Below are positions 3,354 through 59,844 of a DNA stretch of 64,000 nt, in pieces; position 1 is the first letter of the stretch, and every line of letters starts with the position of its first letter. The stretch comes from Alphaproteobacteria bacterium (GTDB taxonomy: Bacteria > Pseudomonadota > Alphaproteobacteria > Rs-D84). The stretch spans positions 32,004 to 96,003 of the forward strand of contig JAFZXK010000012.1 of the NCBI GenBank assembly GCA_017616785.1, written 5' to 3'. The notes below the pieces were generated by a model. The model ran no database searches. It was given only the letters and a program-made list of their open reading frames with translations, and was not told the DNA's origin. Both the position numbers and the translations under genes were made by a program.

Positions 3354-3375
3354 TGGTTAGTGTTAGTGTTAGTAC

Positions 3376-4461: not shown

Positions 4462-4798
4462 GCCGTGATAGCCGAATGATAAGCCGGATTCTGTTCCGCC
4501 CATATTCAGTGTTGTTCCGGCGCGTTCAACACCAAACAAATGGGTGGCAGGCATAATTAATCTGTGCAATGTGTTACCACAAAGCATCAAGCCCTCTACC
4601 CGTTTCCGATTTGGGACGATCATTGGAAACCTATTTGAAGTTGCTGCACACAGAGATTGCCCGTTTCACCCGGGTTAAACCCGTATCGTCACTGTTGCTC
4701 TAATCGTCAGATTGCTCTGCCCGGTGATTGGCCGGTGTGTTGTCCCAATGCAGTCCGGACTTTCCTCCGCCACGGAAAAAGTTGCGACGGCTATGCCT
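4462..4798 (-). ncRNA. rnpB: RNase P RNA, bacterial type A
   Basis: Minus-strand sequence contains GGAGGAAAGUCCGGACUGCA (CR-I, P4 5' strand). It also has GGGUGAAACGGGC, CAAAUAGG...GGGUAGAGGGCUUGAUGC and ACAGAAUCCGGCUUAUC (CR-V), in the same order as E. coli M1 RNA. 5' AUAGCCG can pair with 3' CGGCUAU (P1). Followed by an intrinsic terminator. End coordinates are approximate (+/- 10 nt). Confidence 0.8.
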
Positions 4799-4816
4799 TT
4801 ATTCAACTATTCGTGA

Positions 4817-27710: not shown

Positions 27711-27909
27711 GTGTTAGTGGGGACACTTTTTTCGTCATCCCGCGCGCCGACGCGGGATCTTGTTGTTTTCGTTGAAGTCCAGCAAGATACCGCTTTGCAG
27801 CGGTATGACGGGAAAAACGACAAGGCCCGGTTTTTTGTGTTAGTGTTAGTGTTAGTGGGGCGACACCCCCGGCGGTTCCGCCGGACCCTTCTAGGCAGAG
27901 GGGAACTTG

Positions 27910-27958
27910 CACTAACCACCCGTCGCGGCACGCCGCGCCGCGGTCGTGACGGACTTAC
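27910..27958 (-). repeat. 49-bp dispersed GC-rich repeat element, copy 1 (inverse orientation of copy at 53752-53800)
   Basis: 48 of 49 identity with the reverse complement of 53752-53800 (GTAAGTCCGTCACGACCGCGGCGCGGCGTGCCGCGACAGGTGGTTAGTG). Confidence 0.8.
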
Positions 27959-28014
27959 ACTATACATCATACCCCGTCTGCTGCGCATCCACCCCTTTCC
28001 ATGGGAAAAGGGGA

Positions 28015-52282: not shown

Positions 52283-53755
52283 ATGAAAAAGACGGTTGTT
52301 TTGTGTATCTTGGACGGTGTCGGTTACAGCGAAGCGCGCGCGCATAATGCGGTGGTGCGTGCCAAGATGCCTTTTTTTAACGGATTGTTGCGGAAATATC
52401 CAAATTCGCTTTTGCGGGCGTCGGGAACGGCGGTTGGGTTGCCGGGAAATTTAATGGGTAATTCCGAAGTTGGACATATCTGTATTGGCGCCGGGCGCGT
52501 GGTTATGCAATATTTGTTGCGGTTTGCACGTGAAGATTGGAATTCGAATAAACCATTGAACAAATTTATCGCCGATGTTCGGCGTGACGGCGGAATTGTG
52601 CACTTTGCAGGTCTGATGTCCGACGGGCGGGTGCATTCGGATGTGCGTGACGAAATGAAAATCGTAAAGTATATTTTGGATGCGGGCCTAAAAGTATGTA
52701 TTCATTTTATGGGCGATGGACGCGATACACCCCCGCGATCGGCACTTAAGTATGTGCGTGTAATAAAGCGGATGCTGGCACCGTATTTCGCCGATGGACG
52801 CGTGTGGTTTGGGACCTTGTCCGGCCGGTACTATACGATGGACCGAAACAATAATATGGATCGAACGGAACTCGCGTTTAATGCGATTGCAAATGCACAT
52901 GGCGGTGCACATGCCGATACAATTGAAGACGCAATAAAAGATTCCTATGCGGCCGGCGTTACAGATGAATTTTTCAAACCGACGATTATAAAGCCAACAC
53001 CAATTTCGGCGCGCGATGGGTTTGTTTTTGGCAATTATCGCAGTGACCGTGCGCGGCAAATCGTTCGTGTAATGTTGCGGACCGGTGCACACATATTGTG
53101 TTTTTCGCAATATGGTGAGGGGTTAAATGAAAAATGCCCTGCACTGCTTTCTGATATTCCGGTTGAAAATACACTTGGTGATGTTGTTGCGGCGGCGGGA
53201 CTGACGCAGTTGCGCATCGCGGAAACCGAAAAGTACAACCATGTGACTTATTTTATGGATGCGGAACGAACAATTGATTTCAATGGCGAAGAAAAAGTGC
53301 TGATTGATTCGCCGGCGGTCGCGACGTTTGATATGAAGCCCGAAATGTCGGCACCGGAAATAACGGCGGCACTTTTACCACGCATTGGAAAGTTTGATGT
53401 TGTTATGATGAACTTTGCCAATGGCGATATGGTCGGGCATACCGGGAACGAGGTCGCAACCGTTAAAGCCATGGAATGTTTAGATAAACAATTGGCGCAG
53501 ATTGTGCCGGCGGTACTGGCGGTCGGTGGGCAAATGCTGATTATCGCGGACCATGGTAATGCGGAAAAAATGTGGGACGATAAAAATAATGTCCCATGGA
53601 CGGCACATACCAATAATAAAGTTCGTGCGATTTTGGTGTCTGAACCACCATATAGAAAAATCAAAAACGGTGGCCTGGCTGATGTTGCACCAACGATTTT
53701 GAAGTTATTAGGCGTGTCGCAGCCGGCGGATATGACGGGGAAGAGTTTAGTGTAA
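52283..53755 (+). CDS. gpmI: 2,3-bisphosphoglycerate-independent phosphoglycerate mutase
   Basis: 490 aa. N-terminal VLCILDGVGYS and NFANGDMVGHTG motifs, which bind the metal and phosphoserine in iPGM. Confidence 0.9.
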   Translation: MKKTVVLCILDGVGYSEARAHNAVVRAKMPFFNGLLRKYPNSLLRASGTAVGLPGNLMGNSEVGHICIGAGRVVMQYLLRFAREDWNSNKPLNKFIADVRRDGGIVHFAGLMSDGRVHSDVRDEMKIVKYILDAGLKVCIHFMGDGRDTPPRSALKYVRVIKRMLAPYFADGRVWFGTLSGRYYTMDRNNNMDRTELAFNAIANAHGGAHADTIEDAIKDSYAAGVTDEFFKPTIIKPTPISARDGFVFGNYRSDRARQIVRVMLRTGAHILCFSQYGEGLNEKCPALLSDIPVENTLGDVVAAAGLTQLRIAETEKYNHVTYFMDAERTIDFNGEEKVLIDSPAVATFDMKPEMSAPEITAALLPRIGKFDVVMMNFANGDMVGHTGNEVATVKAMECLDKQLAQIVPAVLAVGGQMLIIADHGNAEKMWDDKNNVPWTAHTNNKVRAILVSEPPYRKIKNGGLADVAPTILKLLGVSQPADMTGKSLV

Positions 53756-53800
53756 GTCCGTCACGACCGCGGCGCGGCGTGCCGCGACAGGTGGTTAGTG
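53752..53800 (+). repeat. 49-bp dispersed GC-rich repeat element, copy 2 (immediately after the gpmI stop)
   Basis: See copy 1. In both copies the element lies directly downstream of a stop codon in the sense orientation of that gene. Confidence 0.8.
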
Positions 53801-56533: not shown

Positions 56534-56565
56534 TATAGTGTTAGTGGTTAGTGTAAGTGTTAGTG

Positions 56566-56714: not shown

Positions 56715-58610
56715 ATGGGAAAAGTATTAGGTATCGATTTGGGAACCACAAATTCGGCCATGGCCTTTATGGACGGAAATGACCCGAAAATTATTGAAAA
56801 CGCCGAAGGTGGTCGGACGACCCCGTCGGTTGTTGCAATTACGAATAATGGCGAACAGTTGGTTGGTATTACCGCCAAGAACCAGGCCGTTACAAATCCG
56901 GAAAATACGATATATGAAATTAAGCGTCTTATGGGTTTGCGCTTTGATAGCCCAGAGGTGCGCGAAATTATGAAGCGTGTGCCGTATAAGATTGTCCCGG
57001 GTGACAATGGTGATGCGTGGGTTGAAATTGATGGCAAAAAATACGCCCCGTCGCAGATTTCGGCGATGATTCTTAGCAAACTTAAAAAAGACGCCGAAAA
57101 TTACCTTGGCGAAGCGGTAACCGATGCGGTTATTACTGTGCCGGCGTATTTCAATGACTCGCAACGTCAGGCAACCAAAGACGCCGGTCGTATTGCAGGC
57201 TTGAACGTTTTGCGTATTGTGAACGAACCGACCGCGGCCGCGTTGGCGTATGGTTTGGATAAAAACAAAGATGGAACGATTGTGGTCTATGACCTTGGTG
57301 GTGGAACGTTCGATGTGTCGGTCTTGGAAATTGTTGACGGCGTGTTCGAAGTGAAATCAACCAATGGTGATACGGCGCTTGGCGGGTCTGATTTTGATGC
57401 GCGCGTGTTGAAATATCTGATTGATGAATTCAAATCGCAAACTGGCATTGATTTGTCGAACGACAAATTGGCGTTGCAGCGGTTAAAGGAAGCCGCCGAA
57501 AAGGCAAAAATTGAACTTTCGTCCAAGATGTCGACCGAAATCAACCTGCCCTTTCTTACGGCGGATGCGTCGGGCCCAAAACATTTCAATATAACACTGA
57601 CACGTGCAAAGTTGGAATCTTTGGTTGATGATTTGATTCAGCGCACAATTGAACCTTGCAAAAAGGCGTTGAAAGACGCGGGTATCGAAAAATCGCAAAT
57701 CAACGAGGTTATCTTGGTTGGTGGTCAAACCCGTATGCCCAAAGTTGTGGAAACGGTCAAGGAATTCTTTGGTCGTGAACCGCACAAGGGTGTGAACCCG
57801 GACGAAGTGGTTGCACTGGGTGCCGCGATTCAAGGGGGCGTGTTAAAGGGCGATGTCAAAGATGTATTACTTTTGGATGTTACGCCATTGTCACTTGGAA
57901 TTGAAACATTGGGCGGTGTGTTCACGCGTCTTATTGACCGCAATACAACGATTCCGACCAAAAAGTCCCAGGTGTTCAGTACCGCCGAAGATAATCAATC
58001 GGCCGTAACTATTCGCGTATTCCAAGGTGAACGCGATATGGCGGCGGATAATAAATTGCTTGGTCAATTTAATTTGGAAGGTATCGCGCCGGCGCCGCGT
58101 GGCATGCCACAAATCGAAGTGTCTTTTGATATCGATGCGAACGGCATTGTTCATGTGTCGGCCAAAGATAAAGGTACCGGCAAAGAACAGGCGATTTCGA
58201 TTAAATCTGATGGTGGATTGTCCGAAGACGAAATTAAACGCATGGTTGACGAAGCCGCCGCAAATGCCGACGCGGACAAGAAAAAACGCGAACTGGCCGA
58301 GGCCAAGAATAATGCGGAGGCCGCAATCAATATGATTGAAAAGTCGTTAAAAGAACATGGTGATAAAATCGGCGCGGATGATAGGGATGCCATTGAAAAA
58401 GCCAAGAAGGAATTGGCGGACGAATTGGCAAAATCCGACGCAACCGCGGAATCTTTGAAACAAAAGACCGAAGGGTTAACCGAAAAAGCTATGAAACTTG
58501 GCGAAGCGGTGTACAAGGCGCAACAAGAAGCGCAAAATGCCGCGGGCGAAAGTTCGGATAATAACCAATCCGACGGTGCGCGCGATGCGGACTTTTCGGA
58601 AAAGAAGTAA
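56715..58610 (+). CDS. dnaK: molecular chaperone DnaK (Hsp70)
   Basis: 631 aa. [17 protein letters not shown] and the full Hsp70 ATPase and substrate-binding domains. Confidence 0.98.
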
Positions 58611-58642
58611 GTGAGTGGTTAGTGTAGGTGGATAGTGTAAGT

Positions 58643-58666
58643 GAACCCGCCCAAATGGGCGGGTTT
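58643..58666 (+). terminator. intrinsic terminator after dnaK (AACCCGCCCAAATGGGCGGGTTTT)
   Basis: Perfect 8-bp stem plus T run. Preceded by a GTGAGTGGTTAGTGTAGGTGGATAGTGTAAGTG heptamer run. Confidence 0.7.
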
Positions 58667-58738
58667 TATGGTATAAAAGTTAGATACGTTCAATTTGCTT
58701 TTTGAATATAATTGAAAAAAATATTACAACACAAAACC

Positions 58739-58958
58739 CGCGGGAATCCGCGGTTTTTTGTGTTTTGGGGTGGTATAAAAAAACCAAGGTTTTTAGTCAA
58801 CCACTTTTTTCAAAAAATCAAAAATTTTTTTCATAGTAAAAACAATAGATTACAAATTTTGCCATTTCCGCCGTGGTGGTGTAAAAAAAACCTTGGTTTT
58901 TTTATACCACCCCAAAACACAAAAAAACCGCAGATTCCCGCGGGTTGTATCACGAAAT
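58739..58958. mobile_element. MITE-like element: ~62-bp near-perfect inverted repeats flanking an ~85-bp AT-rich core
   Basis: Left arm 58739-58805 is the reverse complement of right arm 58890-58958 with 1-2 mismatches (...cccgcgggaatccgcggttttttgtgttttggggtggtataaaaaaaccaaggttttt). No ORF. Each arm contains a CCGCGG-centred hairpin. Confidence 0.55.
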
Positions 58959-59076
58959 TCTTTTTTAAATTATGTCGGGAAAAACAAGCCGGGCGCTTTC
59001 GCGCCCGCTGTCGCGGCTCCGCTTTGCGGAGACGGATAGCCCCCGTCCACCGAAGCCCAACGGGCGAAGGCGGAAC

Positions 59077-59844
59077 TTACACTAACACTGCCCCATACAA
59101 GACCGCAAAAAAGAAACAAACACTGCCGCCGATTACGAACAAATGCCAAATCGCATGCGAAAATTTCATACGGCGCCAAAGATAAAAAATAACCCCAATT
59201 GAATACGACAATCCGCCCGCCAAAATAAACCACAATCCCCGCGCCGGCACATACCGCAACATCGCCGGCAAAATGAACACCAATGTCCACCCCATAATCA
59301 AATAAAGCGCGACAACCCACTTTGGCTGTTGCCGCGGATTACGAATTTTGACTATCGCGCCCCAAATCACAATCGCCCACAAAATGCCAAATACCGTCCA
59401 ACCCAAACCGCCCCGCAAATTCACCAACAAAAACGGCGTGTATGTGCCGGCAATCAACGCATAGATGGCGACACTGTCCCAGACCTCGAAAAAACATTCG
59501 CTTTTGCGACCAATTGTTATGTGGCACATTGTCGAACCGAAATAAAGCGTGAACATTGTCGCGCCAAAAATTGCACACGACACCACCGACCAAACATTTC
59601 CATAAATCGCCGCAAAAACGACCAAAAGTGTCAAACCCGCAATGGCAAGTCCGATACCGATTCCATGTGTCAGAACATTTAATAATTCTTCGCCGCGTGT
59701 TGACCGCCGTTCCCACCGAAAAAGTCCCGTCGCACGCAGGCACCGCAACAACCGCGACGCATGCCGGTCGCCACGAACCTGTTTTAATCGCGTTCTAACA
59801 ACTTTACGATTTTTTGTCATCGGCACCCGCCATTTCAAATTCAC
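59077..59844 (-). CDS. hemolysin-III / PAQR family channel protein
   Basis: 255 aa with 7 TM segments and motif EELLNVLTHGIGIGLAIAGL, typical of the HlyIII family. The start is probably the internal Met at 59820. Confidence 0.8.
   Translation of the reverse strand: MNLKWRVPMTKNRKVVRTRLKQVRGDRHASRLLRCLRATGLFRWERRSTRGEELLNVLTHGIGIGLAIAGLTLLVVFAAIYGNVWSVVSCAIFGATMFTLYFGSTMCHITIGRKSECFFEVWDSVAIYALIAGTYTPFLLVNLRGGLGWTVFGILWAIVIWGAIVKIRNPRQQPKWVVALYLIMGWTLVFILPAMLRYVPARGLWFILAGGLSYSIGVIFYLWRRMKFSHAIWHLFVIGGSVCFFFAVLYGAVLV

What the first reader, a model, noticed from the sequence alone, without database searches (positions are those of the whole stretch)
58739..58958. MITE-like inverted-repeat element occupying the position where dnaJ normally follows dnaK
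Two ~62-bp arms that are near-perfect reverse complements flank an ~85-bp AT-rich core with no coding potential. The arms contain CCGCGG-centred hairpins and the TTTTTGTGTT(TT/AG)GGGG motif also seen in the giant-gene terminator region. In most alphaproteobacteria dnaJ lies directly downstream of dnaK. Here dnaK is followed by its terminator, this element, a GC-rich hairpin cluster, and a convergent hemolysin-III gene. The element could be a non-autonomous transposon, a large regulatory hairpin, or an invertible segment.
Basis: partly seen in the sequence, partly recalled or inferred. Interest (0 to 1): 0.6.

Follow-up and report, generated by a model that had tools for sequence, protein, structure and literature searches.

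The report
Hin-type invertible promoter switch, not MITE
The inverted repeat after dnaK is not a small transposon but a tiny flip-switch of the Salmonella Hin / phage Mu Gin kind, which in related gut bacteria turns secreted-protein genes on and off, and this copy has lost its gene through recombination at the switch site.

Summary
Two arms (58735-58794 / 58887-58946, one mismatch and one indel) flank a 92-bp, 28% GC core. The MITE reading fails: there is no target-site duplication and no second complete copy.

Each arm holds a terminator hairpin plus a 26-bp site, TATAAAAAAACC-AA-GGTTTTT, with CCAAGG on the left and CCTTGG on the right. The site resembles the phage Mu gix sites (10/12 per half-site, 2-bp core).

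The same layout recurs in at least 16 loci of five clades of gut Alphaproteobacteria (Ca. Enterousia and relatives): terminator, site, core, site, 5'UTR, secreted-protein gene. The site centres are 107 or 111 bp apart.

Two other assemblies are identical to the window from dnaK up to the right site. They then continue into a 186-aa secreted-protein gene instead of the right arm and hlyIII. A third contig, on the hlyIII side, ends exactly at the site.

I infer a split promoter. The core carries the -35 (TTGACT). Only the gene side carries a usable -10 (TACAnT, 18-nt spacer), while terminator arms carry TATACC. The window copy has terminator arms on both sides, so it is a gene-less recombinant, or possibly an assembly chimera.

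No recombinase gene was found, and no reads were available to show flipping.

The parts
56715..58610 (+). dnaK (HSP70), the upstream neighbour. Its transcription must be kept out of the switch.
   Evidence: ORF. PF00012 on the identical protein in L001/L002.
58647..58668 (+). dnaK's own intrinsic terminator (CCCGCCCAAATGGGCGGG + TTTT).
   Evidence: Fold of -19.3 kcal/mol, z = -4.8.
58728..58764 (.). Left terminator module. The CCGCGG-GAAT-CCGCGG hairpin is extended by A/T and CACAA/TTGTG pairs, and a T-run follows on both strands. This is the outer part of the left arm.
   Evidence: Terminator-like on both + and - strands. Fold of -20 kcal/mol, z = -2.7. Terminator hairpins occupy this position in other switches (L010, L011, L012, L036).
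58774..58799 (+). Left recombination site: TATAAAAAAACC-AA-GGTTTTTAGTCA, centre AA at 58786-58787. It looks like a hix/gix site.
   Evidence: AAACCAAGGTT is invariant in 15 aligned switches. Compared with Mu gix read from AF083977. Only two such motifs occur in the window.
58795..58886 (.). Invertible core, 92 bp at 28% GC. It contains the conserved blocks AGTCAACCACTTTTTT, TAAAAACAA and TAyAAAT.
58795..58800 (-). Candidate -35 hexamer TTGACT. It reads leftward in the assembled state, and a T6/A6 tract that resembles an UP element lies upstream of it (58801-58830).
   Evidence: GTTGA(C/T)T is invariant or nearly so in 15 switches. Position-weight test.
58837..58845 (.). Conserved central block TAAAAACAA, function unknown.
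   Evidence: Invariant columns T84-A92 of alignment A3.
58881..58906 (+). Right recombination site: GTAAAAAAAACC-TT-GGTTTTTTTATA, centre TT at 58893-58894. The window diverges from L001/L002 after 58901.
58907..58953 (-). Right terminator module, the outer part of the right arm. The hairpin at 58928-58943 with TTTTTTT works as a terminator for transcripts arriving from hlyIII. It is identical to the end of contig L003.
58990..59007 (-). The hlyIII gene's own terminator hairpin.
59077..59820 (-). Hemolysin-III family gene, convergent with dnaK.
   Evidence: PF03006. Translation.

Best explanation
The element is a very small invertible promoter switch (inverton) of the Hin/Gin type. I present it in three layers of decreasing certainty.

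**What is shown.**
- Two 26-bp sites lie in inverted orientation, CCAAGG on the left and CCTTGG on the right, with centres 107 bp apart. They bracket a conserved AT-rich core.
- The outer part of each arm is a terminator.
- The standard form of the switch is: upstream gene, terminator, site, core, site, 5'UTR, secreted-protein gene. It recurs at several loci per genome in gut Alphaproteobacteria of the Rs-D84 / Ca. Enterousia group.
- DNA is exchanged exactly at the site. The window and other assemblies are identical up to the right site and then carry different partners.

**What is inferred.**
- A serine DNA invertase encoded elsewhere cuts at the central AA/TT and flips the core.
- The core carries only the upstream half of a sigma-70 promoter (an UP-like tract plus the -35 TTGACT).
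- The gene-side flank carries the -10 (TACAnT). Flipping therefore assembles TTGACT-18 nt-TACAnT and switches the gene on.
- In the other orientation the -35 faces the terminator arm, which has TATACC/TAGACC (no T at -7). The gene is off, and the arm's terminator blocks read-through from the upstream gene.

**The window copy.** It has a terminator arm on both sides and no gene. It is most likely the product of recombination between the gene-side site of the dnaK switch and the terminator-side site of a second, hlyIII-linked switch. That event would have been a large inversion or a deletion, leaving a parked, target-less switch.
For: 1. **Junction polymorphism.** L001 and L002 are 99.99% identical to the window from upstream of dnaK to 58901. 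After AAAAAACCTTGGTTTTT they continue with GATACAG..., a ribosome-binding site and a 186-aa signal-peptide protein, in place of the right arm and hlyIII.
2. **The other partner.** L003, from the same sample as L001, is 99.98% identical to the window on the hlyIII side. It ends exactly at ...CCAAGGTTTTT, the first base at which the two core orientations would differ.
3. **Recurrence.** A scan of GTDB species genomes for GTATN{1,2}AAAAACCAAGGTTTTT gave 21 loci. Eleven are in four gut alphaproteobacterial MAGs, with 4, 4, 2 and 1 per MAG, and all have the same architecture. Further copies are L025, L031, L033 and L036.
4. **Spacing.** Centre-to-centre spacing is 107 bp in the window species, CAMVAR01 and RUG14636 (also 107 by my count in L036) and 111 bp in one Enterousia MAG, despite divergent core sequence.
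5. **Site similarity.** Mu gixL/gixR, read from AF083977, are TTATCCAAAACC-TC-GGTTTACAGGAA. The gene-side half-site here, GTATCAAAAACC, matches 10 of 12, and the 2-bp core is AA/TT in inverted orientation.
6. **Split promoter.** With each core flipped in silico, all 14 gene-linked switches in alignment A3 gain the same promoter, TTGAC(T)/TTGATT-18-TACA(C/G)T, scoring 8.5-11.2 bits and pointing at the gene. In the assembled state the best gene-directed match scores 3.3-6.9 bits and sits at inconsistent positions. Fixed promoters of orthologous genes in switch-less relatives also use TTGACC-18-TAAAAT.
7. **A flipped example.** L030 carries the flipped arrangement, with the TTGAT end next to the gene. 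Its distal site has decayed to AAAAACTTGTTTTT, which would lock it.
8. **Regulated genes.** The genes downstream of most switches encode secreted proteins that share the motif TSKxYVDxxxxxKQ (L014 carries a different, Cys-rich secreted protein and the locked L030 a protein without a signal peptide). Most database homologues sit on contigs of about 1 kb, meaning assemblies break on both sides of them.
9. **Terminators.** Terminator hairpins in both arms are confirmed.
Against: - No recombinase gene of any family was found in the window or in the other fetched DNA of these bacteria (phmmer with Hin, Gin and XerD, plus Pfam on window ORFs). The enzyme class therefore rests on site similarity alone.
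- Every gene-linked copy in the assemblies has the same core orientation, apart from the locked L030. No reads were available to show both orientations at one locus.
- The split promoter comes from a consensus score that I built from remembered base frequencies. The conserved TAAAAACAA and TAyAAAT blocks are not explained by it. They could belong to a promoter reading the other way, in which case the assembled state would be ON.
- A separation of 107 bp is very short for a looped serine-invertase synapse, and I found no helically phased A-tracts that might help bending.
- The window arrangement was not seen in the other contigs I could read: L001/L002 on the dnaK side and L003 on the hlyIII side. 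It could be an assembly chimera across the shared stretch of about 125 nt (site + core + site).
Confidence: 0.72

Rival explanations
1. Assembly chimera. The two arms belong to two different switches, one next to dnaK and one next to hlyIII. The assembler joined them through the nearly identical site-core-site stretch, so no single DNA molecule carries arm-core-arm. The nature of the parts would be unchanged. The right junction would then be the flipped state of the hlyIII-linked switch.
For: The window arrangement was not seen in the other contigs I could read with these exact proteins. L001 and L002 carry the gene after dnaK, and L003 stops at the site. The cores of paralogous loci are 93-96% identical. 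The sequence shared between the two loci would be about 125 nt, which an assembler using k of 127 or less might traverse.
Against: The window core carries the dnaK-type variants (TTTTGCCATTTCCGCC) right up to the junction. The other cores I could read (L025, L031, L032, L033) have GCACTTTT(C/T)GCC there. With k = 141, as used for the ENA contigs, a 141-mer would span both arm-specific sequences and would need real reads to exist. Assemblers usually break at such repeats and do not usually join across them, as L003 shows.
Confidence: 0.2
2. The element is an invertible or recombining switch, but it is run by a tyrosine recombinase or another enzyme class and not by a Hin/Gin-type serine invertase.
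For: No serine recombinase was found near any copy. Many short promoter switches are run by tyrosine recombinases, for example fimS and the Clostridioides difficile switches (from my own knowledge). The 107-bp segment is shorter than classical Hin/Gin substrates.
Against: The site has the dyad layout of Hin-family sites: 12-bp half-sites around a 2-bp asymmetric core. It also matches Mu gix at 10 of 12 positions per half-site. No tyrosine recombinase was found either.
Confidence: 0.15
3. Cassette insertion or excision site. The CCAAGG site is an attachment site at which a gene cassette (the secreted-protein gene and its neighbour) is inserted or deleted. The window is then the empty site.
For: The window and L001 differ by the presence or absence of genes exactly at the site. 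A module of about 1.3 kb (arm + switch + gene + start of the next gene) is dispersed at several loci at 93-96% identity.
Against: In every copy the two sites are in inverted orientation around a conserved core, which is the geometry for inversion and not for excision. The right arm in the window is a second copy of a terminator module that elsewhere sits upstream of a switch. This is what exchange between two switches predicts, and it is not what an empty site predicts.
Confidence: 0.1
4. MITE or other non-autonomous transposon.
For: Near-perfect inverted arms of about 60 nt around a non-coding AT-rich core.
Against: There is no target-site duplication and no further whole copy in the window. 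Related loci carry one arm only, followed by a gene. The polymorphism boundary lies at the inner site and not at the outer ends. The outer arm is a terminator of the genome's ordinary type.
Confidence: 0.03
5. A single long regulatory hairpin or an oversized bidirectional terminator formed by pairing of the two arms.
For: The arms are complementary over about 60 nt, and both contain terminator hairpins.
Against: The arm-to-arm pairing is unique to this copy. None of the other 16 or more copies has a second arm. Each arm's own terminator would stop transcripts before a full-length hairpin RNA could be made.
Confidence: 0.03

Closest known systems
Salmonella Hin/hix H-segment and phage Mu Gin/gix G-segment (serine DNA invertases)
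   Same: Two 26-bp sites in inverted orientation, each made of 12-bp imperfect half-sites around a 2-bp asymmetric core. The half-site GTATCAAAAACC matches Mu gix TTATCCAAAACC at 10 of 12 positions. In Hin, inversion changes which gene a promoter serves (PMC2427008, PMC11868660).
   Different: The segment is 107 bp between site centres, against about 1 kb for Hin and 3 kb for Gin. No invertase gene lies inside or beside it. No Fis-type enhancer is recognisable. There are several switches per genome. Only half a promoter appears to be carried (inferred).
Bacteroides fragilis Mpi-controlled polysaccharide promoter switches
   Same: Many short promoter-bearing segments per genome share one inverted-repeat consensus, are presumably served by a recombinase encoded elsewhere, and control surface molecules of a gut bacterium. 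The Mpi facts come from my own knowledge and are cited in PMC11602134 and PMC11868660.
   Different: The site consensus is different and the phylum is different. The Bacteroides segments are roughly twice as long and carry a complete promoter (from my own knowledge). Here the regulated genes are small secreted proteins and not polysaccharide operons.
E. coli fimS and other invertons catalogued by PhaseFinder and DeepInverton
   Same: A short intergenic segment between inverted repeats, upstream of a surface-structure gene. More than 75% of catalogued invertons are under 300 bases (PMC11602134).
   Different: fimS is run by the tyrosine recombinases FimB/FimE, which are encoded next to it, and it carries the whole promoter. 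The present family is not described in the papers I could search.
Multi-site inversion systems (shufflons, Mycoplasma vsa, the large inversions between switch sites in B. fragilis)
   Same: Recombination between sites that belong to different units rearranges which flank is joined to which. This is how I explain a switch with two terminator arms.
   Different: Here the evidence is a single alternative junction between assemblies. It is not a mapped set of permutations.

Membership tests
MITE / non-autonomous transposon | Terminal inverted repeats | tested here: met
   Arms have one mismatch and one indel over 58735-58794 / 58887-58946.
MITE / non-autonomous transposon | Target-site duplication flanking the repeats | tested here: not met
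The flanks are ...AATATTAC and GAAATTCT....
MITE / non-autonomous transposon | Multiple complete copies, with filled and empty sites bounded by the repeat ends | tested here: not met
   No second copy in the window. Related loci have one arm plus a gene. The polymorphism boundary is at the inner site.
Hin/Gin-family serine invertase system | Paired 26-bp sites in inverted orientation, with 12-bp half-sites around a 2-bp core | tested here: met
   Sites at 58774-58799 and 58881-58906. The half-site matches Mu gix at 10 of 12 positions.
Hin/Gin-family serine invertase system | Identical asymmetric core dinucleotide at both sites, so that only inversion restores base pairing | tested here: met
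   AA at 58786-58787 and TT at 58893-58894. This pair is invariant in 15 switches.
Hin/Gin-family serine invertase system | A serine invertase gene (Resolvase plus HTH) within or next to the invertible segment | tested here: not met
   No hit to Hin or Gin among ORFs of the window and all fetched loci. Pfam on window ORFs found no recombinase. Whether one exists elsewhere in the genome could not be tested.
Hin/Gin-family serine invertase system | A cis-acting, Fis-bound recombinational enhancer | not testable with these tools
   Conserved core blocks exist, but nothing identifies them as an enhancer. A-tract phasing was not significant.
Invertible promoter (inverton) | A short segment between inverted repeats, upstream of a gene | tested here: met
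   Met in 16 or more related loci. In the window itself the downstream gene is missing.
Invertible promoter (inverton) | A promoter that serves the gene in one orientation only | tested here: inconclusive
   A consensus score predicts TTGACT-18-TACAnT only in the flipped state, in 14 of 14 switches. There are no transcript data.
Invertible promoter (inverton) | Both orientations present in a population | tested here: inconclusive
   The evidence is indirect. The right junction in the window joins a terminator arm to the opposite core end from the one seen in all other copies. L003 ends at the point where the orientations diverge. L030 is flipped and locked. No reads were available.
Intrinsic terminator (outer part of each arm) | A GC-rich hairpin followed by a T-run | tested here: met

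The most novel reading that the evidence does not exclude
Reduced-genome gut Alphaproteobacteria (Rs-D84 / Ca. Enterousia group) use a family of 107-bp Hin-type switches that flip only half a promoter. The UP element and -35 move between a live -10 in front of a secreted fibre-like protein gene and a dead -10 in front of a terminator. The switches sit at several loci and are served by one invertase encoded elsewhere. They can also recombine with one another and rearrange the chromosome, and the window would capture one such inter-switch product. These would be among the shortest invertase substrates known, and a promoter architecture that I could not find described.
Probability: 0.4. Interest if true: 0.7.

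Novelty: new variant of a known kind. Interest (0 to 1): 0.6.

Why it matters
Invertible promoters are a known route to phase variation, but these bacteria are uncultured, have genomes under 1 Mb (PMC12306168) and have almost no described regulation.

A conserved multi-locus switch in front of a secreted-protein family would indicate stochastic surface variation in them. It would also give a concrete handle, the site consensus, for measuring that variation in any gut metagenome.

Two features would test current ideas about how serine invertases synapse and how little DNA a switch needs. One is the 107-bp size. The other is the apparent splitting of the promoter across the crossover site.

In practical terms, the sites explain why assemblies of these genomes break here and why most members of the regulated gene family sit on contigs of about 1 kb.

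Tried and rejected
- **Target-site duplication.** None found.
- **Further arm copies in the window.** None found.
- **Rfam and tRNA scans of the window.** They found only RNase P at 4464-4810 and nothing at the element.
- **Recombinase search.** Pfam on 20 window ORFs found no recombinase.
- **Helical phasing of A/T tracts, as an aid to looping 107 bp.** It was no better than shuffled sequence, so I dropped the idea.
- **Identity of the regulated protein.** Pfam and PHROGs gave nothing for the 186-aa protein, and only a weak phage tail-protein hit (E = 2.5e-5) for the C-terminus of the neighbouring 319-aa protein. AlphaFold on a 37-sequence alignment gave pLDDT 44, so I ran no fold search.
- **Metagenome scan for the flipped gene-side junction.** One hit only, L030.
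- **Physical linkage of L031 to the window through the ruv genes.** The two do not overlap.
- **Literature.** Searches for this switch, for Enterousia phase variation and for split-promoter inversion found nothing specific. PMC193581 is not held.

Full report
**1. The observation**

The repeat finder reports arms 58754-58804 / 58876-58926, 51 nt and 92% complementary. My alignment extends them outward through the CCGCGG hairpins. Between 58735-58794 and 58887-58946 there is one mismatch and one 1-nt indel. The stretch between the arms is 92 bp at 28% GC.

A 34-nt arm probe matches only these two places in the window, with 0.00 expected. The inner motif AAACCWWGGTTT occurs only at 58781 and 58888, with 0.03 expected. 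There is no target-site duplication.

**2. Anatomy of an arm**

Each arm has two parts.

- The outer part is a terminator: a CCGCGG-GAAT-CCGCGG hairpin followed by a T-run. The scan calls it on both strands in the left arm and on the minus strand in the right arm. Its tail, TTTTTGTGTT, is the same as at the terminators after the giant gene. It is therefore an ordinary terminator of this genome.
- The inner part is a dyad site. The left one reads TATAAAAAAACC-AA-GGTTTTTAGTCA and the right one GTAAAAAAAACC-TT-GGTTTTTTTATA.

dnaK and the HlyIII-family gene each also have their own terminator (58647-58668 and 58990-59007).

**3. The key result: the same DNA with a different partner**

I looked up contigs that encode exactly the window's DnaK. 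This returned L001 (55 kb, sample ERZ27256916) and L002 (sample ERZ27256899). Both are 99.99% identical to the window up to 58901, which covers dnaK, the left arm, the core and the right site up to AAAAAACCTTGGTTTTT. After that point they are unrelated to the window. They continue with GATACAG..., a ribosome-binding site and a gene for a 186-aa protein with a signal peptide.

I then looked up the HlyIII protein. This returned L003, from the same sample as L001. It is 99.98% identical to the window on that side and ends exactly at ...GGTGGTATAAAAAAACCAAGGTTTTT. That is the first base at which the two possible orientations of the core would differ.

The window is therefore L001 to the left of the crossover plus L003 to the right of it. 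The two partners share only about 16 nt at the join. A transposon would show its polymorphism at the outer ends of the repeat. Here the boundary lies at the inner site.

**4. A family of such units**

I scanned one genome per GTDB species for GTATN{1,2}AAAAACCAAGGTTTTT. The scan gave 21 loci. Eleven are in four gut alphaproteobacterial MAGs:

| MAG | Loci |
|---|---|
| Ca. Enterousia sp. JAZLAT01 | 4 |
| CAMVAR01 | 4 |
| RUG14636 | 2 |
| a red-deer MAG | 1 |

All eleven have the same layout: terminator hairpin, site with CCAAGG, AT-rich core, site with CCTTGG, short 5'UTR, and a gene for a secreted protein. Further copies turned up in L025, L031, L033 and L036.

The centre-to-centre distance is 107 bp in the window species, CAMVAR01 and RUG14636 (also 107 by my count in L036) and 111 bp in the Enterousia MAG, although the core sequences differ.

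Alignment A3 of 15 copies shows these invariant blocks:

- AAACCAAGGTT
- A-TCAAC followed by TTTTT
- TAAAA-CAA
- AAAAACCTTGGTTTTT followed by (G/T)ATACA

Most downstream proteins share an N-terminal motif, TSKxYVDxxxxxKQ (L014 and the locked L030 do not). They have no Pfam family. Of 73 database homologues, most sit on contigs of about 1 kb, which means assemblies break on both sides of them.

Some relatives have the orthologous gene behind a fixed promoter and have no switch. One example reads TTGACC-18-TAAAAT directly after dnaK. So dnaJ is not expected after dnaK in this lineage. No dnaJ lies in the window.

**5. What kind of site this is**

I read the phage Mu gix sites from AF083977. They are TTATCCAAAACC-TC-GGTTTACAGGAA and its inverted partner. 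The gene-side half-site here, GTATCAAAAACC, matches at 10 of 12 positions. The layout is that of the Hin/Gin family: 12-bp half-sites around a 2-bp asymmetric core, AA on one side and TT on the other. Hin is a serine invertase acting on 26-bp hix sites (PMC2427008, PMC11868660).

I therefore assign the sites to a serine DNA invertase. This assignment is an inference, because no recombinase gene was found in the window or in any fetched locus.

**6. How the switch probably works (inferred)**

The best-conserved core block contains a -35 hexamer, TTGACT (TTGATT in one clade). It is preceded by a T6/A6 tract that resembles an UP element. It lies at a fixed distance from the site and, in every assembled copy, points toward the terminator arm.

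I scored sigma-70-type promoters in both the assembled and the in-silico flipped states:

| State | Best gene-directed promoter | Score |
|---|---|---|
| Flipped (14 of 14 gene-linked copies) | TTGAC(T)/TTGATT, 18 nt, TACA(C/G)T, always at the same position | 8.5-11.2 bits |
| Assembled | Varies from copy to copy, at inconsistent positions | 3.3-6.9 bits |

At the corresponding place the terminator arms carry TATACC, TAGACC, TGTACC or TACGCC. None of these has the T at -7.

My reading is that the flipping segment carries the upstream half of the promoter and the gene flank carries the -10. The terminator arm has two roles: it insulates the gene from the upstream operon, and it receives the -35 in the OFF state.

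If several paralogous loci are each ON in only a minority of cells, the consensus assembly would show OFF at every locus. That is what is observed.

One metagenomic contig, L030, has the flipped arrangement in front of a different gene. Its distal site has decayed to AAAAACTTGTTTTT, so it appears to be locked ON.

The scoring matrix was built from base frequencies that I remembered. The blocks TAAAAACAA and TAyAAAT remain unexplained. This step carries less confidence than the rest.

**7. The window copy**

The window copy has a terminator arm on both sides and TATACC at both -10 positions, so neither orientation can drive a gene.

The simplest origin is exchange between the gene-side site of the dnaK switch and the terminator-side site of a switch next to hlyIII. 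That exchange would have been a large inversion or a deletion. It would also explain why the right junction joins a terminator arm to the opposite core end from the one seen in all other copies.

The alternative is an assembly chimera that joins the dnaK locus to a flipped hlyIII-linked switch through the shared stretch of about 125 nt. Two points weigh against it:

- The window core has the dnaK-type variants right up to the junction, while the other cores I could read (L025, L031, L032, L033) differ at those positions.
- A k = 141 assembly would need reads that span both arm-specific sequences.

I cannot exclude the chimera, and I give it about 0.2. Under either reading the junction is evidence that DNA is exchanged at the site.

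**8. Comparison with known systems, and novelty**

In site architecture the element works like a Hin/Gin inversion system. In genome organisation it works like the Mpi-controlled promoter switches of Bacteroides fragilis, with many short switches and a recombinase encoded elsewhere.

It differs from both in four ways:

- its size (107 bp between site centres);
- the absence of an adjacent invertase gene;
- the absence of a recognisable enhancer;
- the apparent splitting of the promoter across the crossover site.

Invertons are widespread and catalogued (PMC11602134, PMC11868660). I found nothing on this family or on phase variation in Ca. Enterousia / Rs-D84, a group with genomes under 1 Mb (PMC12306168).

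I rate it a new variant of a known kind, with interest 0.6.

**9. Limits**

- There are no reads, so flipping at a single locus is not shown.
- There is no recombinase.
- The regulated protein family could not be identified.
- It is not proven that L025 and L031 belong to the same genome as L001. The counts within single MAGs do show several switches per genome.

Noticed in passing
window 27910-27978 (+) and 53734-53800 (-); also L030 1975-2100: A dispersed GC-rich hairpin element of about 70 nt, CACTAACCACCyGTCGCGGCACGCCGCGCCGCGGTCGTGACGGACTTACACTA. It occurs twice in the window in opposite orientation at 93% identity, and again in a contig from another species. It looks like a REP-type intergenic repeat. 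The 'GC-rich hairpin cluster' at 58990-59086 beside the element is of a similar type.
   Followed up: partly
window 58611-58645, 56540-56565, 3356-3368, 27713-27857, 59075-59090: The motif GTTAGTG and close variants pile up immediately after stop codons (dnaK, L25, the giant gene, hlyIII). There are 17 copies on the + strand and 3 on the - strand, following gene orientation. The same motif appears in relatives (L006, L030). The motif contains stop codons, and its function is unknown.
   Followed up: partly
window 4947-27659 (+): A single ORF of 7,570 aa (22.7 kb), about a third of the window, in what is probably a genome of about 1 Mb. It is followed by two terminators with GTGTTAGTG tails.
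   Followed up: no
L026 2447-2815 (same in L027-L029): In a related species without the switch, the orthologous secreted-protein gene follows dnaK behind a fixed TTGACC-18-TAAAAT promoter. It has a GC-rich leader of about 290 nt that is identical in four independent assemblies and may be a structured RNA.
   Followed up: no
L025 219-1763 and L031 8866-10505: The switch-controlled 186-aa gene is followed by a second secreted protein of 319-351 aa. Its N-terminal region of about 170 aa is conserved between loci, and its C-terminus is completely different. One C-terminus weakly matches a phage tail protein (phrog_18629, E = 2.5e-5). This is a pattern typical of variable receptor-binding proteins.
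   Followed up: partly
window 58600-59100: GC skew on the + strand changes sign exactly at the element, positive up to about 58800 and negative beyond. This fits convergent gene orientation, a replication terminus, or a recent inversion breakpoint.
   Followed up: no
window 4464-4810 (-): Bacterial RNase P RNA, class A (175.7 bits). It is the only Rfam family in the window, and ARAGORN found no tRNA genes in 64 kb.
   Followed up: no
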